Below the pieces are notes generated by a model, which had not been told where the DNA came from, did not search any database, and was given only the letters and a program-made list of their open reading frames with translations. The position numbers and the translations under genes were made by a program. 20,000 nucleotides of DNA from an uncultured virus (IMG/VR IMGVR_UViG_3300037466_000868) (taxonomy: Duplodnaviria > Heunggongvirae > Uroviricota > Caudoviricetes). The stretch lies in the IMG/VR virus record IMGVR_UViG_3300037466_000868; one strand, written 5' to 3'. Of this stretch, positions 8,189 through 17,859 are shown piece after piece (the stretch's first letter is position 1; each line of letters begins with the position of its first letter).

Positions 8189-9496
8189 CTACTTCTCGCA
8201 CTTCCCGAGCGGGCGACGGTCCTTTCTCTCGAAAACTGGTATTTGTTCGATAGTGGAGGCCGGGGAGATCAGGGAGGCTGTCGGCTGGACTGATATCGTG
8301 TTCAGGCGTGGGTTGACGTTGACGGCAAGTGGGCATCCATCGCGCGCGCAGATTGTGTTGTAGGTACGTTCAAATCCATATCCCTCATCGCCCATAAGTT
8401 TCGCCTGCAAAATCGTATGATACGGCAGGAAGGGGAAGTAATCCGGCTTGTGTAACTGGACGCCAAGGCCGGCGATTCCAGCGATACCAACGCCTGCGAC
8501 GACCGCTTGCCGAACTCGCAATCGGTAGATGGACAGCACGTCAGCACGCAAAGCGGCGGCGGTCTGCCAAGGCAGCGCCACAGCCATGATCCGCGTCCAG
8601 AATGTAGGATAGTGCGATAGCATCAGATGCGCGGCGAGCATGTAAAGTGTCAGAGCGAATCCTATTTTAATAAAGGGGTCGTCATTGCGCTGCTTAAAGA
8701 GTGCGGTGAGGATGATGCTATGCCAAACGATGAGAACCATCGCGCTAATTGAGGCGTTGACCGGCAGATACGTCAGATGGAAGCATAGCTTGTACCGCAG
8801 CCAATCGGGGGAGAACGGCATAACCGCGCGAATGACCGTGTGAAACAAATTGAGGCCGGTTAGGAGCGAGGCAGCGAATGACGCGACAAAAATCGCTAAG
8901 GCAAACGCGATTATTTTGCCGCTAAATCGTACCCTGTTGATCAGCCACAGCGGCGCGAACATTGCCGACGAGACTTGAATACCAAGAGCGGCAATCATAG
9001 GGGTTGCGCCAGTGAACGTTTTTCGGTTTGCAACAAAGAGTAACCCCAGCAAGACGAATGAACTCGCAAACGCCTGTCGGGTGGTATTCATTTGGACGGT
9101 GACAACCGCAACGCAGAAGTAGACCAGCCACACGATCGGTTGGGAATTAGGACAAATTCGCTGAACGACGAAGTAGATTGCCCAAACGTTAAAGACGGCG
9201 ATCACGGCAAAGAGGATGTCTACCGACCCGCCGAGGGATTTCGTTAGAATATTAAGCCAAAGAAAAAGCGGCTCAACCTGGAGAACTGGCGCGGGTGGTT
9301 GATAGCCGAAATGCCATTCCCGTAGATGCGAAAACAACGAGTCGTAGGCGAGCCAATCGTATCCGAGATGGTATCTTAATCCGACAAAAAGCCCAACGAT
9401 CACCGTAGAAGCTATCGCCGCCCACTTTGTGGGGCTGTGCATCGATATCAGGGCCAAAATTAACAGCGCAACGGCAACGACGAGATAAGCAAACAT
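8189..9496 (-). CDS. EpsG/Wzy-like polysaccharide polymerase (lysogenic conversion moron)
   Basis: Multi-TM 435 aa protein with GLRYHLGYDWLAY, EPLF, RQAFASS and IQVSS motifs typical of the EpsG family; antisense to late genes; visibly AT-richer than its flanks. Confidence 0.8.
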   Translation of the reverse strand: MFAYLVVAVALLILALISMHSPTKWAAIASTVIVGLFVGLRYHLGYDWLAYDSLFSHLREWHFGYQPPAPVLQVEPLFLWLNILTKSLGGSVDILFAVIAVFNVWAIYFVVQRICPNSQPIVWLVYFCVAVVTVQMNTTRQAFASSFVLLGLLFVANRKTFTGATPMIAALGIQVSSAMFAPLWLINRVRFSGKIIAFALAIFVASFAASLLTGLNLFHTVIRAVMPFSPDWLRYKLCFHLTYLPVNASISAMVLIVWHSIILTALFKQRNDDPFIKIGFALTLYMLAAHLMLSHYPTFWTRIMAVALPWQTAAALRADVLSIYRLRVRQAVVAGVGIAGIAGLGVQLHKPDYFPFLPYHTILQAKLMGDEGYGFERTYNTICARDGCPLAVNVNPRLNTISVQPTASLISPASTIEQIPVFERKDRRPLGKCEK

Positions 9497-9663: not shown

Positions 9664-9891
9664 ATGCCAGAACCGCCCAAAATCCGCCTAATCCCCCGCT
9701 GGCGCACCGAATTAACCAGATTGTGGTCCATGCGGGTGGCCTATTTCTGGATGGCGATGGGGGCTGTGGCTGCCCTATGGATGGGGCTGGCCGGTAGCAT
9801 ACCAACGCCAATCTTTTTCGGCGTTGGCTTCTTGGTCATCTTTTCGTTCAGCGTTGCCCGTTTTCTTAAGCAACCGGGCACCGACGCATGA
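9664..9891 (+). CDS. putative holin/pinholin (2 TM); alternative in-frame start at 9622
   Basis: AGGAGA before ATG 9664; two hydrophobic segments; basic end (ARFLKQ); ATGA overlap with the endolysin. Confidence 0.7.
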   Translation: MPEPPKIRLIPRWRTELTRLWSMRVAYFWMAMGAVAALWMGLAGSIPTPIFFGVGFLVIFSFSVARFLKQPGTDA

Positions 9892-10364
9892 GGCCGAATG
9901 CCAAAAAAGGCGCTGGCCTTGCGGCTGGCGTGGCACTTGCCGCGGCGTTGTTCGTGATGCCGTGGGAAGGTCTGTACACGAAGCCTTACCGGGATATCGT
10001 CGGCGTGGTGACGGTCTGCTACGGCGAGACGGAGAACGTCCAGAATCGCCGCTATACGCCGCAGGAGTGTCGCGATCTGTTGGCGAAGAAACTGCCCCGT
10101 TACTACGCGGAGATATCGTCATGTTGGGGGCCTCAGATTGAGACCAAACTAACCGACAACATGCGCGTGGCGTTCGTGTCGGGCGCATACAACTTCGGCT
10201 CGGGCGCGTTCTGCAATTCCAGCATGGTCCGGGCGTTGAAGGCTGGCGACTTTCGCGGAGCTTGCCACGCGCTACGGCTTTACAATCGGGCAGGCGGCAA
10301 GGTGGTGCGTGGGCTGGATAACCGGCGCAAAGCCGAGGAGCGTCTGTGCCTCACCGGCCTCTAG
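9888..10364 (+). CDS. GH24 lysozyme endolysin with N-terminal SAR-like segment
   Basis: Catalytic E-X8-D-X5-T (EGLYTKPYRDIVGVVT), AYNFG, GLDNRRKAE; Ala/Gly-rich weakly hydrophobic N-terminus. Confidence 0.93.
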   Translation: MRPNAKKGAGLAAGVALAAALFVMPWEGLYTKPYRDIVGVVTVCYGETENVQNRRYTPQECRDLLAKKLPRYYAEISSCWGPQIETKLTDNMRVAFVSGAYNFGSGAFCNSSMVRALKAGDFRGACHALRLYNRAGGKVVRGLDNRRKAEERLCLTGL

Positions 10365-11625: not shown

Positions 11626-11765
11626 TCGAGACCGCGCTGGAAGTCGCCATGGCGCTGGGCGCACTGGCCCTGTTCGCCATGGCTTTAGGGCTGGCCTTGG
11701 ACAACCACGCGGCGCGGTTGGACCCTAGCACGCCATATTATGTCGCAGCGCAAAAGGCCCCGTAA
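11622..11765 (+). CDS. 47-aa hydrophobic peptide (MIETALEVAMALGALALF...)
   Basis: ATGA overlap with the upstream gene; ends TAA inside the terminator hairpin. Confidence 0.5.
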   Translation: MIETALEVAMALGALALFAMALGLALDNHAARLDPSTPYYVAAQKAP

Positions 11766-11782
11766 GTCGGGGCCAAATTTTT
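11752..11782. terminator. probable intrinsic terminator (possibly bidirectional) ending the late operon
   Basis: AAAA-GGCCCCG-taagt-CGGGGCC-aaaTTTTTT. Confidence 0.6.
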
Positions 11783-11840: not shown

Positions 11841-13115
11841 ATGCCTACTCCTCCGGTATCAAACGAAGACCTTGCGGCCACGGTAGCCGCCTATGAGGCC
11901 AGCGGGCGCAATCAATCCGCCACGGCCAGGGTGCTAGGGTTGGCGCGGGAAACCGTGCAGTCGCGGCTTAGGCGGGCCTCTGAGCGGGGTCTGCTGCTGG
12001 GGCATCCGGCGGCGATGCCGGGGTTTGCCATAAAGAGCGTAGCGGCCAAGGTTGGCGATGCTTGGGTTAAGCAAACCAAGGAACCGGGCGAGGTCTACGC
12101 GCCGATTGAGGGACACGCCATCAAGGGCGAGTCCGCTCTGGTGGATGCCGAAGGGCGCGTTATCCAGAAGTGGATTAAAACCAAAGAGGACGCCGACGAC
12201 ACGATTGCGCTATCCGCCGCAATCCATGACGAGTTTTCGCAATACAAGGGGTACGCCAAACTAGTGCGCCCGCCGAAGGAAACCTACGCCGACCTCTGCA
12301 ACTACTACCCTGTCGTCGATCCGCACATTGGGATGCTTTCTAACGGCAAGGAGACCGGCGAATCCAACGACTTGAAGATTGGCGTTAGTCGCGTCGGCGG
12401 GACATTGCAGCGGCTTATCGGGGACTCACCTCCCGCAGACACTGGCGTAATCATCAACACCGGAGACTTCTTCCACGCAGACGATCAGCGCAACGTCACG
12501 CCAGCATCAAACCATCAACTTGACGTTGATGGACGCAGCCACAAAGTCAAGTGGGCCGGAATTAACATGCTGCGCACCACGATTGATCTGGCCCTACAGC
12601 GGCACAAGAGGGTTATCGTCAAAAACCTGAAGGGCAACCACGACCCGGAATCAGCCATGTGGCTGAATATTTCTCTTGGGTTGTTCTACTCAAATGAAGA
12701 GCGCGTCGAGATCGACACGGAAGACGCGAATAATGATCACTTCTTCCATCTGTTCGGCGTGAACTATACCGGGGCCACGCACGGTCACACGATGAAGCCT
12801 GACCGCATGTATGTGATGATGGCGGAAGATAACCCTGAATACTGGAATGCGTCGCTCTACCGTTGGTGCATCTTCGGCCACATTCATCACGAGACGAAGA
12901 AGCAGATCGGCTCGCTAATATGCGAGTCATTCAGCCAGCCTGTGCCGCGCGATTCATTCGCTCACAGCCACGGTTATAGGTCGGGCAGCGCCATGCAGTC
13001 GGTGACGCTGCATAAGCAGGACGGCGAAAGCGGGCGGGTTATCAAACGCTTCCCGCCGTCGCGTGGGTTGCCGGTTGCGGCGAATGATAATGAGCAAAAG
13101 CGGAGGGCGGCGTGA
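11841..13115 (+). CDS. N-terminal HTH plus calcineurin-like metallophosphoesterase
   Basis: HTH NQSATARVLGLARETVQSRL; motifs DPH, TGDFFHAD, GNHD, HGH, GHIHH; C-terminus AANDNEQKRRAA. Confidence 0.85.
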   Translation: MPTPPVSNEDLAATVAAYEASGRNQSATARVLGLARETVQSRLRRASERGLLLGHPAAMPGFAIKSVAAKVGDAWVKQTKEPGEVYAPIEGHAIKGESALVDAEGRVIQKWIKTKEDADDTIALSAAIHDEFSQYKGYAKLVRPPKETYADLCNYYPVVDPHIGMLSNGKETGESNDLKIGVSRVGGTLQRLIGDSPPADTGVIINTGDFFHADDQRNVTPASNHQLDVDGRSHKVKWAGINMLRTTIDLALQRHKRVIVKNLKGNHDPESAMWLNISLGLFYSNEERVEIDTEDANNDHFFHLFGVNYTGATHGHTMKPDRMYVMMAEDNPEYWNASLYRWCIFGHIHHETKKQIGSLICESFSQPVPRDSFAHSHGYRSGSAMQSVTLHKQDGESGRVIKRFPPSRGLPVAANDNEQKRRAA

Positions 13116-13378
13116 GTAAACCGGCAGAAGTTATTATCATCAAGGAAGGTGTATTGGAGTCGTGGCTTAACGATGCCGGCACGTTTGTTATGTTCGCGAC
13201 TCTTATCGGTATTGGCGTCCTTATCGGTAGCCCTGCCATGCAATGGGTTGGTGGAATCATTGGCTTCATTGCCATCGGCACGCGCCCAACGCTACACCGG
13301 AAGCGGATGACGATCGCGGAAGCTCGTGCAAAGCTGGACTCGTTTGACGCCGCACCCACGCAAGTAGGTGCGGCATGA
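13112..13378 (+). CDS. small 2-TM hypothetical protein
   Basis: GTGA overlap with GGAGG upstream; two hydrophobic segments; ends TQVGAA. Confidence 0.65.
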   Translation: MSKPAEVIIIKEGVLESWLNDAGTFVMFATLIGIGVLIGSPAMQWVGGIIGFIAIGTRPTLHRKRMTIAEARAKLDSFDAAPTQVGAA

Positions 13379-13584
13379 CACCCACCAAATTCGACGGCTT
13401 CAATGCCGTTTACCGCGGCACCGCAGAACTTCCCTGTGAAGACCTCCCTGCCAAGCGCACCGACAAGACGGTTGTTACGCGCTGGTTGCCGTCTGCGGAG
13501 GAGATACAGCGCATGGCGCGCGGTGGTGCTGTTGAGTTGACGATCTTCGGCGGGCAGCCGCCGGTTGCTATGAGGGTGGTGTGA
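13375..13584 (+). CDS. phage hypothetical protein
   Basis: ATGA coupling; pattern CEDLP...W.PS.EE...GG.V.L...QPPV is a recognisable phage small-protein family. Confidence 0.7.
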   Translation: MTPTKFDGFNAVYRGTAELPCEDLPAKRTDKTVVTRWLPSAEEIQRMARGGAVELTIFGGQPPVAMRVV

Positions 13585-13787
13585 TGCTGACAAAGCCGAT
13601 GACAAGCAACCCCGAGCTAGACGCGCTTATTGAACGCGCTGTCGCTGCGTACAATAAGATGACGCCGCAGCAAAAGCGCGAGATGCACGAGGCGCAGCGG
13701 CGTTCGTGGGTGATCGGCAACATGCTGTTGGATCATCCTGATATGTCGCGTGAGTATGCGGAGAACATTTACGATAGGGTGGTGTGA
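13584..13787 (+). CDS. phage hypothetical protein
   Basis: GTGATG coupling; MTPQQKREMHEAQRRSWVIGN. Confidence 0.65.
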   Translation: MLTKPMTSNPELDALIERAVAAYNKMTPQQKREMHEAQRRSWVIGNMLLDHPDMSREYAENIYDRVV

Positions 13788-13930
13788 TGGCGATAGGCAA
13801 CATAAAGCGAAAGTGGTTGCGCCGCACGGTTGTTGTTATTGTTTCGCCTGTGGCGTTCGTTGTGCACATCCTTGTCGGCCTGGCACAGGGATGCGTTGAT
13901 GCCGCAGAAGACGTGCGCAGCGCTTGGTGA
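13787..13930 (+). CDS. 47-aa membrane peptide (MAIGNIKRKWLRRTVVVIVSP...)
   Basis: Exactly fills the gap, with TGATG coupling at both ends; basic N-terminus plus TM helix. Confidence 0.6.
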   Translation: MAIGNIKRKWLRRTVVVIVSPVAFVVHILVGLAQGCVDAAEDVRSAW

Positions 13931-14295
13931 TGACCGCGCTCCAACTAACCCCCGCCGTCCTCGCAGCGGCTTACGACTATCTAGCAGCCTGCGAACCTTT
14001 CTGCCGTTGGAACCTACCCGACTCCGAAGACATCAAGTTTCGAGTCATCAAGTCGCGCAAGGTATTCGCGCAGTATGTGTGGGACGGCACCCACGCAATT
14101 GAGGTGTCGTCCGGCACGGTAGGGCAAACGGATACGTTGATGCAGACCATGGCACATGAGCTAACGCACCTGCACCTGCGGCTTACCGGGATGGAAAGCC
14201 GCAGCGATAATCCGAACGTGCATAACGGCGCGTTCCGGAAGTTGGCGGCGAAGGTCTGTGCGACACACGGCTGGGATTTGAAGGCGTTTTATTGA
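13930..14295 (+). CDS. SprT-like zinc metalloprotease
   Basis: TMAHELTHL (HExxH) followed by HNGAFRKL, the SprT-type downstream H-x-x-x-F motif. Confidence 0.75.
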   Translation: MTALQLTPAVLAAAYDYLAACEPFCRWNLPDSEDIKFRVIKSRKVFAQYVWDGTHAIEVSSGTVGQTDTLMQTMAHELTHLHLRLTGMESRSDNPNVHNGAFRKLAAKVCATHGWDLKAFY

Positions 14296-14302
14296 GGGGA
14301 AA

Positions 14303-14500
14303 ATGACATTCAAAGAAATCCCATTTGAAGACGATGCCGATGAAGTCCAAACATGGAAGGGGCTTGCGTTATCGGCTATAAGCGATCTGAGGCGATATGC
14401 GCACGATGATCTTCCGCACCGCCGAATGGTCTCTGTCGAGGCTTATGAAGCCGACGCCATACGACTTCACTCCGCTACGCAAGTTGCGGAGGCGGCGTGA
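14303..14500 (+). CDS. hypothetical protein
   Basis: GAGGGG SD; ends TQVAEAA. Confidence 0.6.
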   Translation: MTFKEIPFEDDADEVQTWKGLALSAISDLRRYAHDDLPHRRMVSVEAYEADAIRLHSATQVAEAA

Positions 14501-14646
14501 TGAGAGCGGCGTTCCTGGCGAACCTTGCTCTTACATTCCAGCGGGCTGTGTCAGTTGGGCCGCCGCACAGGATAGATGGCAGAATGCGGGAACGAGCGTG
14601 GCTTTGGTTTTCTGAGGCTCAACAGATGGGGCTAGTATTGCAATGA
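14500..14646 (+). CDS. 48-aa hypothetical protein (MRAAFLANL...)
   Basis: GGAGG SD; TGATG coupling upstream and ATGA coupling downstream. Confidence 0.55.
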   Translation: MRAAFLANLALTFQRAVSVGPPHRIDGRMRERAWLWFSEAQQMGLVLQ

Positions 14647-14930
14647 CCTACCACAACCCCGGCGACCCCGTCGTTTTCGTCGACGACACCAACCTTGGCA
14701 CGCTCGGCTACGGCGACGAGGTGTATCCCAAGCTCGGCAATACCTACACCGTGCGCGATGTTGTGCTTGACCACTTCGGCGTGGAAGGGCTCTTGCTGAT
14801 GGAGATCCGCAACGATCGTCTGCCGTATCGCGTTGGCGCCGAGATTGTGGACACGGAAAAGAGCTTCGCGTCGTGGCGATTCAGGCCGGTTGTGCGCGGT
14901 GAGAGCAAGAAAGATATGGAGGCGGTGTGA
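14643..14930 (+). CDS. hypothetical protein (small beta-barrel-like)
   Basis: ATGA coupling; PGDPVVFVDD...G.TYTVR...RFRPV pattern common in alphaproteobacterial phages. Confidence 0.7.
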   Translation: MTYHNPGDPVVFVDDTNLGTLGYGDEVYPKLGNTYTVRDVVLDHFGVEGLLLMEIRNDRLPYRVGAEIVDTEKSFASWRFRPVVRGESKKDMEAV

Positions 14931-15409
14931 GTATTAGAATCATGGATACAACGGCGCGTGAGACGTGTGACGCGGTTTCTGCTTATCGCGAAGCCCCCGC
15001 GAAGTCGCACAGCGACACCGCGCCTTGCGAAATCCTTCCAACCTCCGAATGGTCGCCAACTATTGGCCAGCCGGAGGCGGCCAATAGTAACGTCGTGGGG
15101 CTGGCGGGCCAGTACGTTCTATTGCGCACCATCCTCGACGCCGCCTTCAACCACGCCGCAACCGGCAAGGGCAAGGAGCGTCACGCGCGGGACTTGCCTT
15201 TCGATAAGCAGCCGATGCTTGAAACCACCCGCCTTGTCGGACCAGGATTCCCGCTCGGACAGGCCATCAAGAAGGCCGGCGAGGCGGCTGGCATGATCGA
15301 TCGGTCGGAATACGACGCCGCAGAGGCTGAGTGCCTTGGGGCGATCAACTATCTGGCTGGTGCGGTGGCTTGGATGAGGGAGCGAAAATCTGCTAAGGTG
15401 GCTGCATGA
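14927..15409 (+). CDS. conserved phage hypothetical protein (GKGKERH family; possibly all-alpha NTP-pyrophosphatase-like)
   Basis: GGAGG plus GTGA coupling; GKGKERHA...PF..QP...GQAIKK..EA...E.LGAINY; function is inferred only. Confidence 0.6.
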   Translation: MSIRIMDTTARETCDAVSAYREAPAKSHSDTAPCEILPTSEWSPTIGQPEAANSNVVGLAGQYVLLRTILDAAFNHAATGKGKERHARDLPFDKQPMLETTRLVGPGFPLGQAIKKAGEAAGMIDRSEYDAAEAECLGAINYLAGAVAWMRERKSAKVAA

Positions 15410-15636
15410 CAGATTGGCAGACTATAGACTCAGCGCCCAAGGATGGCACCGCCATACGAGCGTGCCGCGTGGTAGATGGCAAGCCGATGTTTGATGGTAA
15501 GGCCGCTTGGCGCACCGTTACGCTACCAGAGACGTTTGTCGCCGGAATGTTGGTTCATGAAGAGACGGTCACTGGATGGATGCGTATAGATGAGGATAAG
15601 CGCGCCCCTGAACCGACGCATTGGATGCCAGAATGA
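15406..15636 (+). CDS. DUF551-like phage protein
   Basis: WQTIDSAPKDG ... PTHWMP signature. Confidence 0.75.
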   Translation: MTDWQTIDSAPKDGTAIRACRVVDGKPMFDGKAAWRTVTLPETFVAGMLVHEETVTGWMRIDEDKRAPEPTHWMPE

Positions 15637-15806
15637 ACATCAAGGGCGATACTGTCGAGATGACGGAGAACGAACTTCAGGAACTCATGCGCCAGCGTGA
15701 TAATTATTCTGGAAACATTTCTCTCAATCTAGAGTCTGTTGGCGAGACCTACCAAGGGCGTAGGGTCGTCATTTCGCCGGCCTCTACGCAAGTTGAGGCG
15801 GGCTAG
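15633..15806 (+). CDS. hypothetical protein (MNIKGDTVE...)
   Basis: ATGA coupling; ends TQVEAG. Confidence 0.55.
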   Translation: MNIKGDTVEMTENELQELMRQRDNYSGNISLNLESVGETYQGRRVVISPASTQVEAG

Positions 15807-15954
15807 GCTGCCGCCACTCATCACCACACCAGCGCTCCATAAATGACACGTTGGCGCGTCATACGGGCCAGATATGAAGCGTATACGCGACAGCGTATGA
15901 TTCATGGATATACGCTTTTGCGTATTGAAATTCACAACGAGTGAATGTTTTTCA

Positions 15955-15990
15955 GGCCCGCCCCTTCGAAAGTTGGGGTGGGTTTTCTTT
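15955..15990 (+). terminator. intrinsic terminator of the accessory operon
   Basis: CCCGCCCC-TT-C-GAAA-G-TT-GGGGTGGG followed by TTTTCTTT, at the convergence with minus-strand genes. Confidence 0.7.
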
Positions 15991-16306
15991 ACCGCGCACC
16001 CACTCCCATCGGAACCTTCGGCCAGACCGCCCTTACGTCGACCCAGCCAACCGCGCCGCATTTCGTGCAGCGAAGGTGCGCAGATATATCGGCCCACGTC
16101 CAATCCGGCAGATTCGCGATTCGTAGTTCTGCGCTGTGGCCGCACCGCTGACCCGATCCGCCAACGCAATAAACCAGAATCGACTTCACGTCCCCGCGGC
16201 GATCGGGCTTACCCGGCCAATATCGCAGGAAGTCGGCGGGCTTTTTGCGCCATGGTTTGCGTTGCTGGAGGCGGTGCATGGCGAGAACGTAATGCGAACG
16301 CGCCAA
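15989..16306 (-). CDS. small zinc-ribbon protein
   Basis: YC...RCGH and LRCTKCG Cys pairs; immediately downstream of the integrase; start codon uncertain. Confidence 0.6.
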   Translation of the reverse strand: MARSHYVLAMHRLQQRKPWRKKPADFLRYWPGKPDRRGDVKSILVYCVGGSGQRCGHSAELRIANLPDWTWADISAHLRCTKCGAVGWVDVRAVWPKVPMGVGAR

Positions 16307-16309
16307 GTG

Positions 16310-17644
16310 TCAACGCTGCGCCAATATCCTGTCCAGTTCCGCGCCCAGAATATCCGCGACGGCGCGCTTTTCAGGCAGCATATCGTATTTGTCATAGACG
16401 GCGGTTACGTCGCCATTCAGATGGTCAAGCATTGCCTTGACATCTTCGCGCTTGGCGCCAGCTCGGCGGGCGAGGGTGGCAGCGGTACGGCGCAAGTCAT
16501 GCGCCGTGAAGTGCTCCATCCCTAAAAACTCGCGAATGCCAACGCGGTTTTGCTTCTTGCCGTCCACGACCTTGCCGTTCCGCTTTCCATTTAATGCTTG
16601 GGATATCGACGCCCGCGAAATCGACGTGCTTCCGGTCGAGTCGAATTTTGACGGAAACAGCACTTTAGAATCAGCACCCTCTAGGGCCTCAGATACAACC
16701 GCACAGGCCCGTTTTGACAGCGGCACCAAGACGGCACGGTCCTTTTTCACTCGGCCTGGCGGCATGTCGTATAGCGCCTCTGGCGTGTCTAGGCCGGTAA
16801 CCTCGCCAACTTCGGCACCAGCGGCCTGATAGGGGCGTACCATGGTGGTTAGAATGAACCGGATGGCGAGGCGCGTAGGCTTGTCCGCCGGCACGCCTTC
16901 CGCGTCGAGGCCGCGCCAGAGCCTTCGTATTTCGTCGTCGGTGAGGACACGATCGCGTTTGCGTTCTTTGCCGCCGCGGCGGTCTAGTTCCGCAACGGGG
17001 TTGGTGGCGACATACTTGCGGCCGGGCTGCTTTGCCCATTTGAACAGCGTGTGAAGGATGGACTGCGTGCGGTTTGCGCTCACGGGGGCAGACTCCGCAA
17101 TTACGTCCAGCAGTTCAGCAACGTCATCGTCTGCAACCGACGAGGCCGGCAGGCCGCCCCATTCTTCGCGCGGGCGCTTGAGATATTGAACGTCGTTTTT
17201 CCAAGATCGTTTGTTCGGATGTGGTATGTCTGGCCACTTGCCGGTCTCGTTAAATGCTGTAACGGCGGCCTCGCCTCCGGCGCCGATCACGTATTCCGCG
17301 ACGTATAGATCCGCGAGGCGGTTGAACGTTAGTTCCTCATCGTCAGCCACGCGCCGTCGTTCCTGCCGCTGTAGACGACGCGGGTCTTCATCAGCTGCTA
17401 TTGTTTCGCGGTGCTGCGCAACTTTCCTGCGCGCGCCAGATAGGTCGAGGCCAGGATATCGTCCAAGGTTCAGGGTTATCGCCTTGGACAGGATTGGCGA
17501 CCAATATTTAAACGCGAACGTTTTCACAGCGCCCTTGGTGACGCGGAGATACAAACCGGGGCAGGAGGTGTCCGGCAATTCTACGCGGGCCTTATCTGGT
17601 GGGCACCGCGCGGCCTTTACCGAACTATCCGTTAGCTTTGGCAT
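16310..17644 (-). CDS. int: tyrosine integrase, P4-like with N-terminal arm-binding domain
   Basis: N-terminal DTSCPGLYLRVT...LGRYPGLDLSGAR; catalytic R (MVRP), K (VKK), HDLRRT, LDH, Y (VYDKY). Confidence 0.95.
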   Translation of the reverse strand: MPKLTDSSVKAARCPPDKARVELPDTSCPGLYLRVTKGAVKTFAFKYWSPILSKAITLNLGRYPGLDLSGARRKVAQHRETIAADEDPRRLQRQERRRVADDEELTFNRLADLYVAEYVIGAGGEAAVTAFNETGKWPDIPHPNKRSWKNDVQYLKRPREEWGGLPASSVADDDVAELLDVIAESAPVSANRTQSILHTLFKWAKQPGRKYVATNPVAELDRRGGKERKRDRVLTDDEIRRLWRGLDAEGVPADKPTRLAIRFILTTMVRPYQAAGAEVGEVTGLDTPEALYDMPPGRVKKDRAVLVPLSKRACAVVSEALEGADSKVLFPSKFDSTGSTSISRASISQALNGKRNGKVVDGKKQNRVGIREFLGMEHFTAHDLRRTAATLARRAGAKREDVKAMLDHLNGDVTAVYDKYDMLPEKRAVADILGAELDRILAQR

Positions 17645-17747: not shown

Positions 17748-17765
17748 AATAAAAACAATGACTTG
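17748..17765 (+). promoter_or_regulatory. IHF-like site left of att core
   Basis: AAACAATGACTTG, one mismatch to WATCAANNNNTTR; near-direct repeat of 17859-17876. Confidence 0.55.
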
Positions 17766-17809
17766 CGTAGTTTAAGATTGTCCAGCAATGTCATCTACGG
17801 CACTATTTT

Positions 17810-17859
17810 CTAGTCTGGGGGACTAGGGGTCGTGGGTTCGAATCCCGCCGCTCCGACCA
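17810..17859 (+). mobile_element. attP core: 3' portion of tRNA-Pro(GGG)
   Basis: CTAGT-CTGGGGG-ACTAG anticodon arm, GTGGG-TTCGAAT-CCCGC T-arm, CGCTCCG-ACCA acceptor 3' strand; no 5' half or D-arm upstream; lies between int and xis. Confidence 0.92.

What the first reader, a model, noticed from the sequence alone, without database searches (positions are those of the whole stretch)
13349..15803. Family of covarying AC-GCAA-GT hairpins at gene ends, overlapping the next ribosome-binding site
Seen: three hairpins share the architecture stem / 1x1 mismatch / AC-GCAA-GT, but their stems differ completely and remain fully paired. They are GCCGCACC-C-AC[GCAA]GT-A-GGTGCGGC (13349-13374), CTCCGC-T-AC[GCAA]GT-T-GCGGAG (14470-14491) and GCC-G-GCCTC-T-AC[GCAA]GT-T-GAGGC-G-GGC (15776-15803). 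Each lies in the last codons of an ORF. In the first two, the 3' arm carries the SD-like AGGT or GGAG of the next gene. None has a U-tract, so they are not ordinary terminators. Known: GNRA-type loops are protein-recognised in lambda/P22 boxB. Inference: a phage-specific cis element, such as a translational-coupling switch, an antiterminator/RNA-binding protein site, an RNase or stability signal, or an ssDNA hairpin marking gene-cassette boundaries.
Basis: partly seen in the sequence, partly recalled or inferred. Interest (0 to 1): 0.8.

Follow-up and report, generated by a model that had tools for sequence, protein, structure and literature searches.

The report
Conserved hairpin tails at phage gene junctions
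A small group of soil phages ends many of its small genes with the same short, strongly conserved RNA hairpin, which hides the start signal of the next gene and marks the fixed edge of slots where unrelated genes are swapped in and out.

Summary
The three hairpins are exactly where stated. Each has a GC stem, a 1x1 mismatch, then AC[GCAA]GT, and each lies in the last codons of an ORF in the frame ACG-CAA-GTx (TQV).

They belong to a real family limited to one clade of uncultured temperate phages (distant kin of Rhizobium phage 16-3). A covariance model finds 4-7 copies per related genome, and 23 of 30 hits end 0-5 nt before a stop codon.

The stems covary. Orientation follows the gene, and GNRA loops are enriched on the main coding strand only. 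The roughly 25-30-nt units are near-identical between phages, while the flanking ORFs are unrelated. Homology breakpoints fall on the first base of the 5' arm. Unrelated ORFs therefore inherit the same hairpin-encoded tails.

My best reading (about 0.45) is an mRNA hairpin that masks the next cistron's ribosome-binding site, so that its translation is coupled to the upstream ORF. The same unit serves as the fixed right edge of ORF slots.

Hairpin 3 and some intergenic copies have no gene behind them. A protein-binding, RNA-stability or recombination role therefore stays open. No RNA data exist.

This is a new variant of known kinds. The scan noted related, but differently built, portable hairpin junctions on other DNA.

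The parts
13349..13374 (+). Hairpin 1: 8-bp stem / C.A mismatch / AC[GCAA]GT. It encodes AAPTQVGA. The 3' arm holds AGGTG, the Shine-Dalgarno (SD) of the next gene.
   Evidence: -17.8 kcal/mol. G007 has a compensatory C-G to T-A change at two third-codon positions.
14470..14502 (+). Hairpin 2 (14470-14491) together with the conserved GGAGG-CGGC-GTGATG stop/start block. It encodes SATQVAEAA*.
   Evidence: The stem-loop is identical in 5 of the 7 phage records aligned (G001 and G008 vary), with unrelated flanks on both sides. A further partial record (L060) has the T variant. Breakpoints at 14470 and 14500/14503.
15776..15803 (+). Hairpin 3: 3 bp / G.G / 5 bp / T.T / AC[GCAA]GT. It encodes PASTQVEAG* and is the last cistron end of the operon, with no gene directly behind it.
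   Evidence: The GCCTCTACGCAAGTTGAGGC core is identical in 6 records with unrelated upstream flanks. Breakpoints at 15776/15780.
13112..13378 (+). Variable 88-aa ORF (slot 1) that reads through hairpin 1. No homologue sits at this slot in G001, G006, G007 or G008.
13375..13584 (+). Conserved 69-aa gene whose start (ATGA overlap) abuts hairpin 1.
   Evidence: 87% identity to G001; 42-44% to G006/G007/G008
14303..14500 (+). Variable 65-aa ORF (slot 2) that reads through hairpin 2.
   Evidence: a homologue only in G001
14497..14646 (+). Variable 49-aa ORF that starts at the GTG/ATG just after hairpin 2.
15633..15806 (+). Variable small ORF (slot 3; ATG 15633, or TTG 15621) that reads through hairpin 3. 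It is an extra ORF relative to G009.
15406..15636 (+). 76-aa ORF. In G009 its homologue is fused directly to the hairpin-3 tail (..PEPTHWMPASTQVEAG*).
   Evidence: 50% identity over 104 aa
11841..13115 (+). First gene of the operon: HTH plus metallophosphoesterase-type exonuclease (phrog_704). It served as the anchor for finding relatives.
15954..15991 (+). Canonical intrinsic terminator of the operon (11-bp stem, then UUUUCUUU). It shows that hairpin 3 is not the terminator.

Best explanation
These are mRNA hairpins, read on the sense strand and built into the last 9 or so codons of a cistron. The 5' arm is an anti-SD-like sequence (CUCC, CCUC, CACC). The 3' arm is the Shine-Dalgarno of the next cistron (GGAG, GAGG, GGUG). 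The stop and next start follow within 0-8 nt, as ATGA or GTGATG.

The fast-folding C(GCAA)G cap makes the helix form locally whatever lies upstream. As a result, the next ribosome-binding site is closed until a ribosome finishing the upstream ORF melts the helix. This is translational coupling through an insulated junction.

The whole unit, from 5' arm to stop, has to stay intact, so it is conserved nucleotide for nucleotide. It therefore forms the fixed right-hand edge of slots in which ORF bodies are exchanged. Any ORF that lands in a slot must read in frame through the hairpin, which is why unrelated proteins share the tails ..TQVGAA, ..TQVAEAA and ..TQVEAG.

Shown here: the structure, its covariation, its position, its conservation and the slot boundaries. 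Inferred: RNA-level folding in vivo and the coupling itself.
For: Position:
- 23 of 30 model hits end 0-5 nt before the stop of the longest open frame. 14 of these 23 have an ORF start within 2 nt of the hit end.
- The SD-like words in the 3' arms match those at hairpin-free junctions of the same operon, such as AGGTGGCTGCATGA at 15406 and GGAGGCGGTGTGA at 14927.

Structure:
- 92% of cells are paired and 7 of 8 pairs change on both sides. 0 of 500 shuffles reach the observed score. Slid controls score 0.13 or less against 0.485.
- Within hairpin 1, the one compensatory change (G007) lies in the non-SD part of the stem, at two synonymous third-codon positions.
- At a junction that appears homologous, G008 has GC[GAAA]GC (tail APAKAGAA) where G009 has AC[GCAA]GT (tail ASTQVDAA). 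G006:1285 and G007:61499 carry C[GCAA]G in another reading frame (LLLASGA). So the structure is kept, not the peptide.

Strand:
- G006:1285 and G007:61499 are inverted together with their gene.
- GNRA loops make up 37 of 308 tetraloop hairpins on the main coding strand and 12 of 308 on the other strand. A mismatch after 2 bp occurs in 21 of 37 GNRA hairpins against 41 of 271 non-GNRA hairpins.

Conservation:
- Major-allele frequency is 0.87-0.90 in the 30-nt unit and about 0.5 in the flanks.

Slots:
- Breakpoints fall at 13349, 14470 and 15776/15780.
- ORFs ending in the same tail are unrelated.
- One ORF segment (52.6% identity over 57 aa) sits before a hairpin-2 type unit in L059 and before a hairpin-3 type unit in G001.

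Start codons:
- Start codons at the hairpin-1 junction are ATG in the window, G007 and G001. They are TTG in G006 and GTG in G009, whose hairpins carry a non-GNRA loop; only G009's is clearly weakened.

Precedent:
- RBS-sequestering helices are established in T4 genes e, soc, 49 and I-TevI (PMC3014915, passages read).
Against: - Hairpin 3 is the best conserved unit (identical core in 6 records). Yet no ORF starts behind it in the window, G001, G007, G009 or L060.
- Hairpin 2 has no directly coupled ORF in G007 or G009.
- Several copies are intergenic or lie inside long ORFs: G001:52530, G006:3446, G009:48885, G007:47776 and G008:15067.
- The 8-mer ACGCAAGT is kept on 7 or more different stems, and 22 of 27 loops are GCAA. 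That is more sequence conservation than stability alone would need.
- Predicted unpaired probability of the SD window at the two hairpin junctions (0.41, 0.31) is not lower than at some hairpin-free junctions, which range 0.25-0.79.
- Wobble pairs give no strand evidence: 2 G.U-type cells against 5 A.C-type.
- Copies from related phages are not independent, and the model was built from the family itself.
- There are no RNA data.
Confidence: 0.45

Rival explanations
1. The hairpins are operators for a trans-acting RNA-binding protein, of phage or host origin. The protein would recognise the apical part (Y.W mismatch, A-U, C-G, GCAA). It would repress or activate translation at many junctions at once, or modify transcription (antitermination). 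This would resemble the MS2 coat-protein operator, T4 RegA or gp43 operators, or N-boxB.
For: - The apical 8-10 nt (YACGCAAGTW) is invariant on at least 7 unrelated lower stems. 22 of 27 loops are GCAA and 23 of 27 closing pairs are A-U.
- The mismatch sits after exactly 2 bp in 21 of 37 main-strand GNRA hairpins.
- The layout of stem / unpaired base / 2 bp / tetraloop, with the RBS in the 3' arm, is that of the MS2 operator (recalled, not read).
- Copies with no gene behind them (hairpin 3, intergenic copies) fit a binding site better than they fit coupling.
- The T4 gp43 operator likewise keeps the top of its hairpin between phages (PMC3014915, passage).
Against: - No candidate protein was found. 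Pfam and PHROGs and the Atlas give no RNA-binding family for the conserved small proteins.
- There is no boxA above chance.
- At the hairpin-1 junction, G006 keeps a helix of equal strength with loop GCCA and the mismatch closed (-16.2 kcal/mol). Loop identity is therefore dispensable there.
- G008 uses GC[GAAA]GC at another junction.
Confidence: 0.2
2. The hairpins are hyperstable tetraloop punctuation of the polycistronic mRNA. They would act as folding nuclei, barriers to 3'-5' exonucleases, or processing marks that set the half-life of each upstream segment. This would be like the C(UUCG)G and GNRA hairpins between T4 genes or REP stabilisers.
For: - The C(GCAA)G cap is present, and GNRA loops are enriched on the sense strand.
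- Copies occur at the end of the last cistron (hairpin 3) and in intergenic spacers.
- In G001, hairpin 3 heads an array of three hairpins (z = -3.8).
- An earlier scan note on another soil phage reached this reading for its intercistronic hairpins.
- The stability and nucleation role of such loops is described in PMC4371310 (passages).
Against: - 23 of 30 copies lie inside the ORF, just before the stop, where every translating ribosome unwinds them. Stabilisers and terminators usually sit after the stop.
- A destabilising 1x1 mismatch is conserved.
- The units are near-identical between phages rather than freely covarying.
- A canonical terminator already protects the operon's 3' end.
Confidence: 0.15
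3. This is a DNA-level signal for cassette exchange. The conserved units would be crossover points or structure-specific targets, for instance for the neighbouring SbcD/Mre11-like exonuclease. They would let ORF bodies move between slots and phages, analogous to PeSLs of T4-type phages or integron attC sites.
For: - Breakpoints lie exactly at the first base of the 5' arms.
- Variable ORFs sit on one or both sides of each unit.
- One ORF segment is found in two different slots.
- G008 has a hairpin-3 type stem at the hairpin-1 position, followed by CGCATGA.
- Relative to G009, the window has an extra ORF inserted just 5' of hairpin 3.
- PeSL-mediated shuffling is documented (PMC2839356 and PMC4122927, abstracts read).
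Against: - Orientation follows transcription, and the loop is GNRA on the sense strand only. A dsDNA site would not need this.
- Different hairpin types share only 8-12 nt, too little for ordinary homologous exchange.
- The arms always match each other, so crossovers are not inside the unit.
- There is no integron integrase. The only integrase is a phage Arm-type enzyme next to the tmRNA att site.
- Breakpoints at gene ends are also what selection on random recombinants gives.
Confidence: 0.1
4. The selected object is the peptide tail (..TQV(A/G/E)(E)A(A/G)), for example a C-terminal degron. On this reading the palindrome is a by-product of Ala/Gly/Pro-rich codons.
For: - Most copies are read in the same frame and end in AA.
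- At the hairpin-1 junction, G001 and G006 keep AAPTPVGAA and G009 keeps DAATPVGAA, while pairing is partly lost.
- Many proteins of these phages carry SsrA-tag-like ..ANDN..AA ends.
Against: - Third-codon positions inside hairpins 2 and 3 do not vary between phages whose genes differ by 20-30%.
- The one synonymous change seen is compensatory.
- The same architecture occurs in another frame (LLLASGA), with another peptide (APAKAGAA), and in intergenic DNA.
- The AA ending is explained by the GCGGC(A/G)TGA spacer-plus-overlap. That spacer is also found at hairpin-free junctions of phage 16-3.
Confidence: 0.05

Closest known systems
RBS-sequestering helices and translational coupling (T4 genes e, soc, 49, I-TevI; MS2 coat/replicase junction)
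   Same: The SD of the downstream cistron lies in a helix. The upstream stop is at the helix, so a terminating ribosome can open it. Start and stop overlap. (T4 cases: PMC3014915, passage read. MS2: recalled.)
   Different: Here one stereotyped unit (YAC[GCAA]GTW cap plus mismatch) recurs at many junctions. It is conserved between phages more strongly than the genes. It is shared by unrelated upstream ORFs as an encoded tail. Some copies have no downstream gene.
Hyperstable tetraloop hairpins between phage T4 genes (Tuerk et al. 1988, recalled; the review PMC4371310 was read in passages)
   Same: Over-represented C-G-closed tetraloop hairpins punctuate polycistronic phage mRNA.
   Different: The loop is GCAA rather than UUCG. 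The hairpins lie inside the ORF end, not between genes. They carry a conserved mismatch, and they include the next SD.
PeSLs (promoter-early stem-loops) of T4-type phages
   Same: Short conserved regulatory motifs flank variable ORFs in hyperplastic regions and coincide with indel and replacement breakpoints (PMC2839356 and PMC4122927, abstracts).
   Different: There is no promoter and no terminator function. The unit lies within coding sequence and fixes the reading frame. Different copies share only 8-12 nt. Recombination at them is not shown.
Lambda/P22 boxB nut hairpins
   Same: A small hairpin with a GNRA-type fold in a phage early transcript, with a variable stem and a conserved loop.
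   Different: The loop is a tetraloop, not a pentaloop. A mismatch sits below a 2-bp cap. There is no boxA. There are several copies at gene ends rather than one per operon leader. No N-like protein was identified.
Bicistronic-design junctions of synthetic biology (recalled, not read)
   Same: The SD of the gene of interest is embedded in the end of a leader cistron with overlapping stop and start, which makes expression independent of context.
   Different: This is a natural element with an added masking hairpin. Its function here is inferred only.

Membership tests
Intrinsic (Rho-independent) terminator | GC-rich hairpin followed directly by a U-run | tested here: not met
   The hairpins are followed by ATGACACCC, GCGGCGTGATG and TAGGCTGCC. 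Canonical terminators with U-runs do exist in the same window, at 11756-11774 and 15954-15991.
RBS-masking / translational-coupling hairpin | SD and/or start codon of the downstream cistron lies in the helix | tested here: met
   Hairpin 1 holds AGGTG and hairpin 2 holds GGAGG in the 3' arm, with the start 4-8 nt later. 14 of the 23 ORF-end copies have a start within 2 nt of the hit end. Hairpin 3 has GAGG but no start.
RBS-masking / translational-coupling hairpin | Upstream ORF terminates at or within a few nt of the helix | tested here: met
   The stop falls 0-5 nt after the 30-nt model window in 23 of 30 hits.
RBS-masking / translational-coupling hairpin | Downstream translation depends on upstream translation | not testable with these tools
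   This needs reporter fusions with premature stops and arm mutants.
T4-type hyperstable tetraloop punctuation | C-G-closed UNCG or GNRA tetraloop, over-represented on the mRNA strand | tested here: met
   C(GCAA)G is present in all three window copies. GNRA loops make up 37 of 308 tetraloop hairpins on the main strand against 12 of 308 on the other.
T4-type hyperstable tetraloop punctuation | Intercistronic position | tested here: not met
   23 of 30 copies lie inside the upstream ORF. Only about 3 are intergenic.
PeSL | Composite of a sigma-70 early promoter and a terminator stem-loop | tested here: not met
   No promoter-like site was found on the + strand at the hairpins, and no U-run follows them.
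PeSL | Flanks variable ORFs and coincides with replacement breakpoints | tested here: met
Lambda/P22 boxB-boxA nut site | boxA (CGCTCTTA-like, recalled) upstream of a 5-bp stem with a GNRA-fold pentaloop, in an operon leader | tested here: not met
   The loop is a tetraloop with a mismatch. boxA-like words occur at chance level (12 against 9.8 expected), with none upstream of a hairpin on the + strand. The hairpins sit at gene ends.
Integron attC | Imperfect palindrome of 57-141 nt with R/L boxes, next to an integron integrase and attI (recalled definition) | tested here: not met
   The units are 22-28 nt. The only integrase is a phage Arm-type tyrosine integrase next to a tmRNA att fragment. 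The R/L boxes were not searched formally.
Host repetitive palindromes (REP/BIME-like) | Many copies spread over the host chromosome | tested here: not met
   In the 6.8-Mb MAG that carries a related prophage, ACGCAAGT occurs 78 times against 161 for the control word. 0 of the 25 sites fetched have stems. The window's own genome is not held.
Rfam families | Match to a curated covariance model | tested here: not met
   No Rfam match at the hairpins at E up to 5.

The most novel reading that the evidence does not exclude
The hairpin units could be dedicated docking adaptors of a phage gene-cassette system. Each slot would offer a fixed start junction on the left and a fixed hairpin-plus-stop on the right. 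Foreign ORF bodies would be captured in frame between them and instantly receive a standard tail and standard coupling to the next gene.

A clade-specific factor would read the invariant YAC[GCAA]GUW cap. Candidates are an RNA-binding regulator or the adjacent SbcD/Mre11-like nuclease acting on the DNA form.

A further twist that is not excluded is modelled on arfA (recalled). The in-ORF hairpins might truncate some transcripts and so feed the small ORF products to tmRNA tagging. This would fit a phage clade that integrates into the tmRNA gene and writes SsrA-like ANDN..AA tails onto about 40 of its own proteins.
Probability: 0.12. Interest if true: 0.85.

Novelty: new variant of a known kind. 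Interest (0 to 1): 0.6.

Why it matters
The finding gives a concrete, testable example of how a temperate phage can keep operon expression stable while freely exchanging small accessory genes. A roughly 25-30-nt standard junction is conserved more strongly than the genes around it. [quoted passage not shown]

If the coupling model holds, this is a natural counterpart of engineered bicistronic junctions. It would also be a useful marker for finding ORF slots (hyperplastic sites) in uncultured phages.

If the invariant cap is read by a protein, it would define a new multi-site post-transcriptional regulon in alphaproteobacterial phages.

Tried and rejected
- **Whole genome of the window:** not held.
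- **blastn against cultured phages:** 7.5 kb of the window gave no match. Protein-level relatives of the exonuclease are Rhizobium/Sinorhizobium 16-3-like phages at about 35% identity. The 15-kb 16-3 region scanned with the model with filters off gave a best hit of only 15 bits, so the family is absent there.
- **Rfam:** nothing at the hairpins.
- **Genome-contig scan:** only one relative, in an Alphaproteobacteria MAG, without hairpins at ACGCAAGT.
- **Distant relatives of the 160-aa protein:** the 34 metagenome loci at 59% identity or less gave 0 model hits at E up to 1.
- **Pattern CYACGCAAGTAGGTG in viral contigs:** 95 stretches matched. Of the 80 read, only 1 (G007) is a family member, and 4 others have 4-5 flanking pairs in unrelated contexts.
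- **RNA runs:** no RNA holder is listed.
- **Unpaired-probability survey of 12 junctions:** it does not separate hairpin junctions from others.
- **Wobble-pair count:** gives no strand evidence.
- **boxA search:** chance level.
- **Atlas look-ups of the 95-aa and 69-aa proteins:** only unnamed clusters.
- **Earlier scan notes:** none by place or by sequence.
- **Literature:** two full-text searches for such junction hairpins listed no paper describing this element. That covers only the held library.
- **Rejected readings:** terminator (no U-run), REP-like host repeat (not in the MAG), chance.

Full report
**Observation**

The window is the right end of a prophage. Its layout is:
- tail fibre at 419-2992;
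- an EpsG-family gene on the - strand;
- lysozyme at 9888-10364;
- a canonical terminator at 11756-11774;
- a + strand operon that starts with an HTH-metallophosphoesterase exonuclease (11841-13115, phrog_704) and runs through about twelve small, mostly overlapping ORFs to 15806;
- a canonical terminator at 15954-15991;
- an Arm-type integrase on the - strand (16310-17644);
- a 95-nt tmRNA 3' fragment (17765-17859) that marks the attachment site.

ACGCAAGT occurs four times against 0.65 expected. The three + strand copies have 8, 6 and 5 further Watson-Crick pairs beyond a 1x1 mismatch. The fourth copy, on the - strand at the edge of the tmRNA fragment, has none.

All three hairpins are read ACG-CAA-GTx (TQV), 3-4 codons before the stop. 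None is followed by a T-run.

**Is it more than chance, and how wide is it?**

A MAG that carries a related prophage has 78 ACGCAAGT sites in 6.8 Mb, against 161 for the control word. None of the 25 sites fetched has a stem. The element is therefore not a host repeat.

Relatives were found with two anchors: the exonuclease (7 viral contigs and 1 MAG) and the 160-aa protein (3 viral contigs and 36 metagenome loci).

I built a covariance model from five copies.
- It finds 4-7 hits at E up to 0.1 in each of five related phage records of 60-140 kb, four of them rated complete (G001, G006, G007, G008, G009). It also hits the partial records L059 and L060.
- It finds none in the 34 loci whose 160-aa protein is 59% identical or less.
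- It finds none in the corresponding 15 kb of Rhizobium phage 16-3, the nearest cultured group at about 35% protein identity.

Rfam has no match. The family is therefore real, but confined to one uncultured clade found in soil and rhizosphere assemblies.

**Structure versus peptide**

On the 27 best matches, 92% of cells pair and 7 of 8 pairs change on both sides. No shuffle out of 500 reaches the observed covariation. Slid controls score 0.13 or less against 0.485. The alignment is fitted to the model and many rows are homologous copies, so these numbers are generous.

Independent stems carrying the same cap are:
- GCCGCACC, CTCCGC and GCCTC (the three window types);
- (T)GCCGA;
- CTGGTTC.GC;
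- GGCAC;
- GCTGCTTCC.

Within hairpin 1, G007 differs from the window by a C-G to T-A exchange at two synonymous third-codon positions.

At what appears to be one homologous junction, G009 has AC[GCAA]GT (tail ASTQVDAA) and G008 has GC[GAAA]GC (tail APAKAGAA). G006:1285 and G007:61499 carry CTCC-T-C[GCAA]G-T-GGAG in a different reading frame (LLLASGA). Other copies are intergenic.

Third-codon positions inside hairpins 2 and 3 do not vary among 6-7 phage records, although their shared genes differ by 20-30%. The constraint is therefore on the nucleic acid, not on TQV.

Against this, at the hairpin-1 junction G001, G006 and G009 read T-P-V with loops GCCG or GCCA. Their helices fold at -11.4, -16.2 and -6.4 kcal/mol, against -17.8 in the window. 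That hairpin can therefore lose its GNRA loop, and in one case most of its pairing.

**Strand**

All copies in the operon are on the sense strand. The G006:1285 / G007:61499 copy lies on the opposite strand together with its ORF.

Among all tetraloop hairpins with at least 7 pairs and at most one mismatch, in the window and five genomes:
- GNRA loops are 37 of 308 on the main coding strand and 12 of 308 on the other. The main strand is the one with more long-ORF coverage.
- The mismatch lies after exactly 2 bp in 21 of the 37 GNRA hairpins, against 41 of 271 non-GNRA hairpins.

This favours an RNA-level element. Wobble pairs do not help: there are 2 G.U-type cells against 5 A.C-type. No RNA run holds the stretch (reported only as something tried).

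**Position**

In 23 of 30 hits, the longest open frame through the hairpin stops 0-5 nt after the 30-nt model window. In 14 of those 23, an ORF of at least 40 codons starts within 2 nt of the hit end.

The 3' arms hold GGTG, GGAG or GAGG. Hairpin-free junctions of the same operon use the same words at the same distance from the start.

The seven exceptions are:
- G001:2385, where the stop is 41 nt on;
- three intergenic copies;
- three copies inside longer frames.

**Conserved islands and ORF slots**

Anchored on the core, the 30-nt unit has a major-allele frequency of 0.87-0.90. The upstream flank is at 0.48-0.50. The downstream flank of hairpins 2 and 3 is at 0.48-0.55. It is 0.76 for hairpin 1, whose downstream 69-aa gene is conserved.

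The BLAST block against G001 starts at 13349, and another ends at 14502. Soil-metagenome contigs laid on the window break at 13093>13349, 14293>14470, 14500/14503>14690, 15297>15776 and 15381>15780. These points are the first base of each 5' arm and the stop after hairpin 2.

ORFs that end in the same tail are unrelated between phages. Among five phages, only the window/G001 pair at slot 2 matches.

Two cases show that the tail belongs to the slot and not to the ORF.
- The homologue of the window's 76-aa ORF (which ends ..THWMPE*) is fused in G009 to ..THWMPASTQVEAG*. The window has an extra ORF inserted just 5' of hairpin 3.
- A 57-aa segment (52.6% identity, E = 1e-14) lies before a hairpin-2 type unit in L059 and before a hairpin-3 type unit in G001.

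**Mechanism**

The best-supported reading is a masked, coupled ribosome-binding site. The 5' arm is an anti-SD-like sequence pairing with the next gene's SD. The helix is nucleated by C(GCAA)G and is opened by the ribosome that terminates at the overlapping stop. The unit must stay intact and in frame, so it is frozen. It then becomes the right-hand border of exchangeable ORF bodies.

Two details fit this reading:
- The invariant part of each stem is the SD part, and the one compensatory change lies outside it.
- Start codons at the hairpin-1 junction are ATG in the window, G007 and G001. They are TTG in G006 and GTG in G009, whose hairpins carry a non-GNRA loop; only G009's is clearly weakened. 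With n = 5 this is suggestive only.

The model does not explain:
- hairpin 3, which is identical in six records but has no gene behind it;
- hairpin 2 in G007 and G009, which has no directly coupled ORF;
- the intergenic copies;
- why ACGCAAGT itself is kept on so many different stems.

I therefore give the coupling model 0.45. The rest is split between a protein-bound operator (0.2), RNA stability or processing punctuation (0.15), a DNA-level exchange signal (0.1), a peptide tail (0.05) and other readings.

**Comparison with known systems**

It works like the RBS-sequestering helices of T4 genes e, soc, 49 and I-TevI (PMC3014915, passages) and like coupled junctions in general. Its cap belongs to the hyperstable tetraloops (PMC4371310, passages; Tuerk 1988 recalled). 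Its relation to variable ORFs resembles PeSLs (PMC2839356 and PMC4122927, abstracts).

It fails the defining features of:
- terminators (no U-run);
- PeSLs (no promoter or terminator);
- boxB/boxA nut sites;
- attC sites;
- host REP elements.

Earlier notes of this scan describe portable hairpin-containing RBS junctions in E. coli prophages and intercistronic tetraloop hairpins in another soil phage. Those place the hairpin between SD and start, or between stop and SD. Here the hairpin lies inside the upstream ORF and contains the SD.

Two full-text searches listed no description of this element. That covers the held library only.

**Verdict**

This is a real, clade-specific, nucleotide-conserved mRNA hairpin family at cistron ends, and it also delimits ORF slots. 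I class it as a new variant of known kinds, with interest 0.6.

Noticed in passing
window 13077-13112 (exonuclease C-terminus); also G001, G006, G007, G008, G009: About 40 long ORFs from many apparently different families end in [A/P]-A-N-D-N-x(5-20)-AA*, for example ..VAANDNEQKRRAA* in the window. The motif is coded with varying Asn and Asp codons, so it is a peptide-level motif. It resembles the alphaproteobacterial SsrA (tmRNA) tag (recalled: AANDNFAEEFAVAA in Caulobacter). 43 ORFs have NDN in their last 20 aa against about 20 expected over all ORFs, spurious ones included. 94 of 1088 ORFs of at least 100 aa end in AA. The exonuclease homologue of phage 16-3 also ends ..QAANDNVPASERRVA*. 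This may be built-in degradation tags. It was not tested.
   Followed up: partly
window 17765-17859 (+), 16310-17644 (-): A 95-nt match to the tmRNA 3' end (Rfam RF00023, E = 0.005, below gathering score) lies next to an Arm-type tyrosine integrase. ARAGORN finds no complete tRNA or tmRNA. This is probably the attachment-site copy of the ssrA 3' end.
   Followed up: partly
window 17761-17768 (-): The fourth ACGCAAGT lies at the inner edge of the tmRNA-like fragment and has no flanking stem. It is probably a coincidence.
   Followed up: yes
L001 9795-9880; L050 5634-5700; L060 1494-1560; absent from the window (gap after 15803): In G001, L060, G007 and L144, hairpin 3 is followed at once by a second hairpin. 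Its stem shows two compensatory double changes (GTCCGAA/TTCGGAC against GTAAGAA/TTCTTAC), and its 13-14-nt loop contains CTACAT. G001 has a third hairpin as well (three-hairpin array, z = -3.8). This may be a structured 3' UTR or a small RNA.
   Followed up: partly
L001 9243-9272; L050 4434-4463 (sense strand of the operon): The 160-aa-family gene in G001 and G007 ends in a hairpin of the same architecture but with the cap AC[TAGC]GT (tails AAPTSVGAAA and AAPTSVGEAA). On the opposite strand it reads ACGCTAGT, one base away from the family core. The window's copy of this gene (14927-15409) has no such hairpin.
   Followed up: partly
window 8189-9496 (-): An EpsG-family membrane protein gene (Pfam E = 6e-31) lies on the opposite strand, between the tail-fibre genes and the lysis genes. 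It looks like a lysogenic-conversion moron for surface polysaccharide.
   Followed up: no
window 15843-15862 and 15837-15958: A palindrome ATGACACG-TTGG-CGCGTCAT and repeated GCGTATAC-like words lie in a 120-nt non-coding block. The block is 86% identical to G001 and sits between hairpin 3 and the operon terminator. It may be a regulatory site.
   Followed up: no
G001 43298-41592, G006 14302-16017, G007 49447-47711, G008 23153-24886, G009 42077-40323: Proteins of about 570 aa end in ..NDNWKPLMAAGDDWxxDIPF*. This acidic tip resembles the SSB C-terminal tail (recalled). In G007 a family hairpin lies inside this ORF (SATQVAEPANDN).
   Followed up: no
L140 4490-4531 (Rhizobium phage 16-3, p036/p037 junction): A perfect hairpin TTGTTC[GCAA]GAACAA sits directly before GGAGGCGGCATGA. 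It is the only GNRA junction hairpin seen in the 15 kb of 16-3 examined. Many 16-3 ORFs there also end in AA* through the same GCGGCATGA overlap.
   Followed up: no
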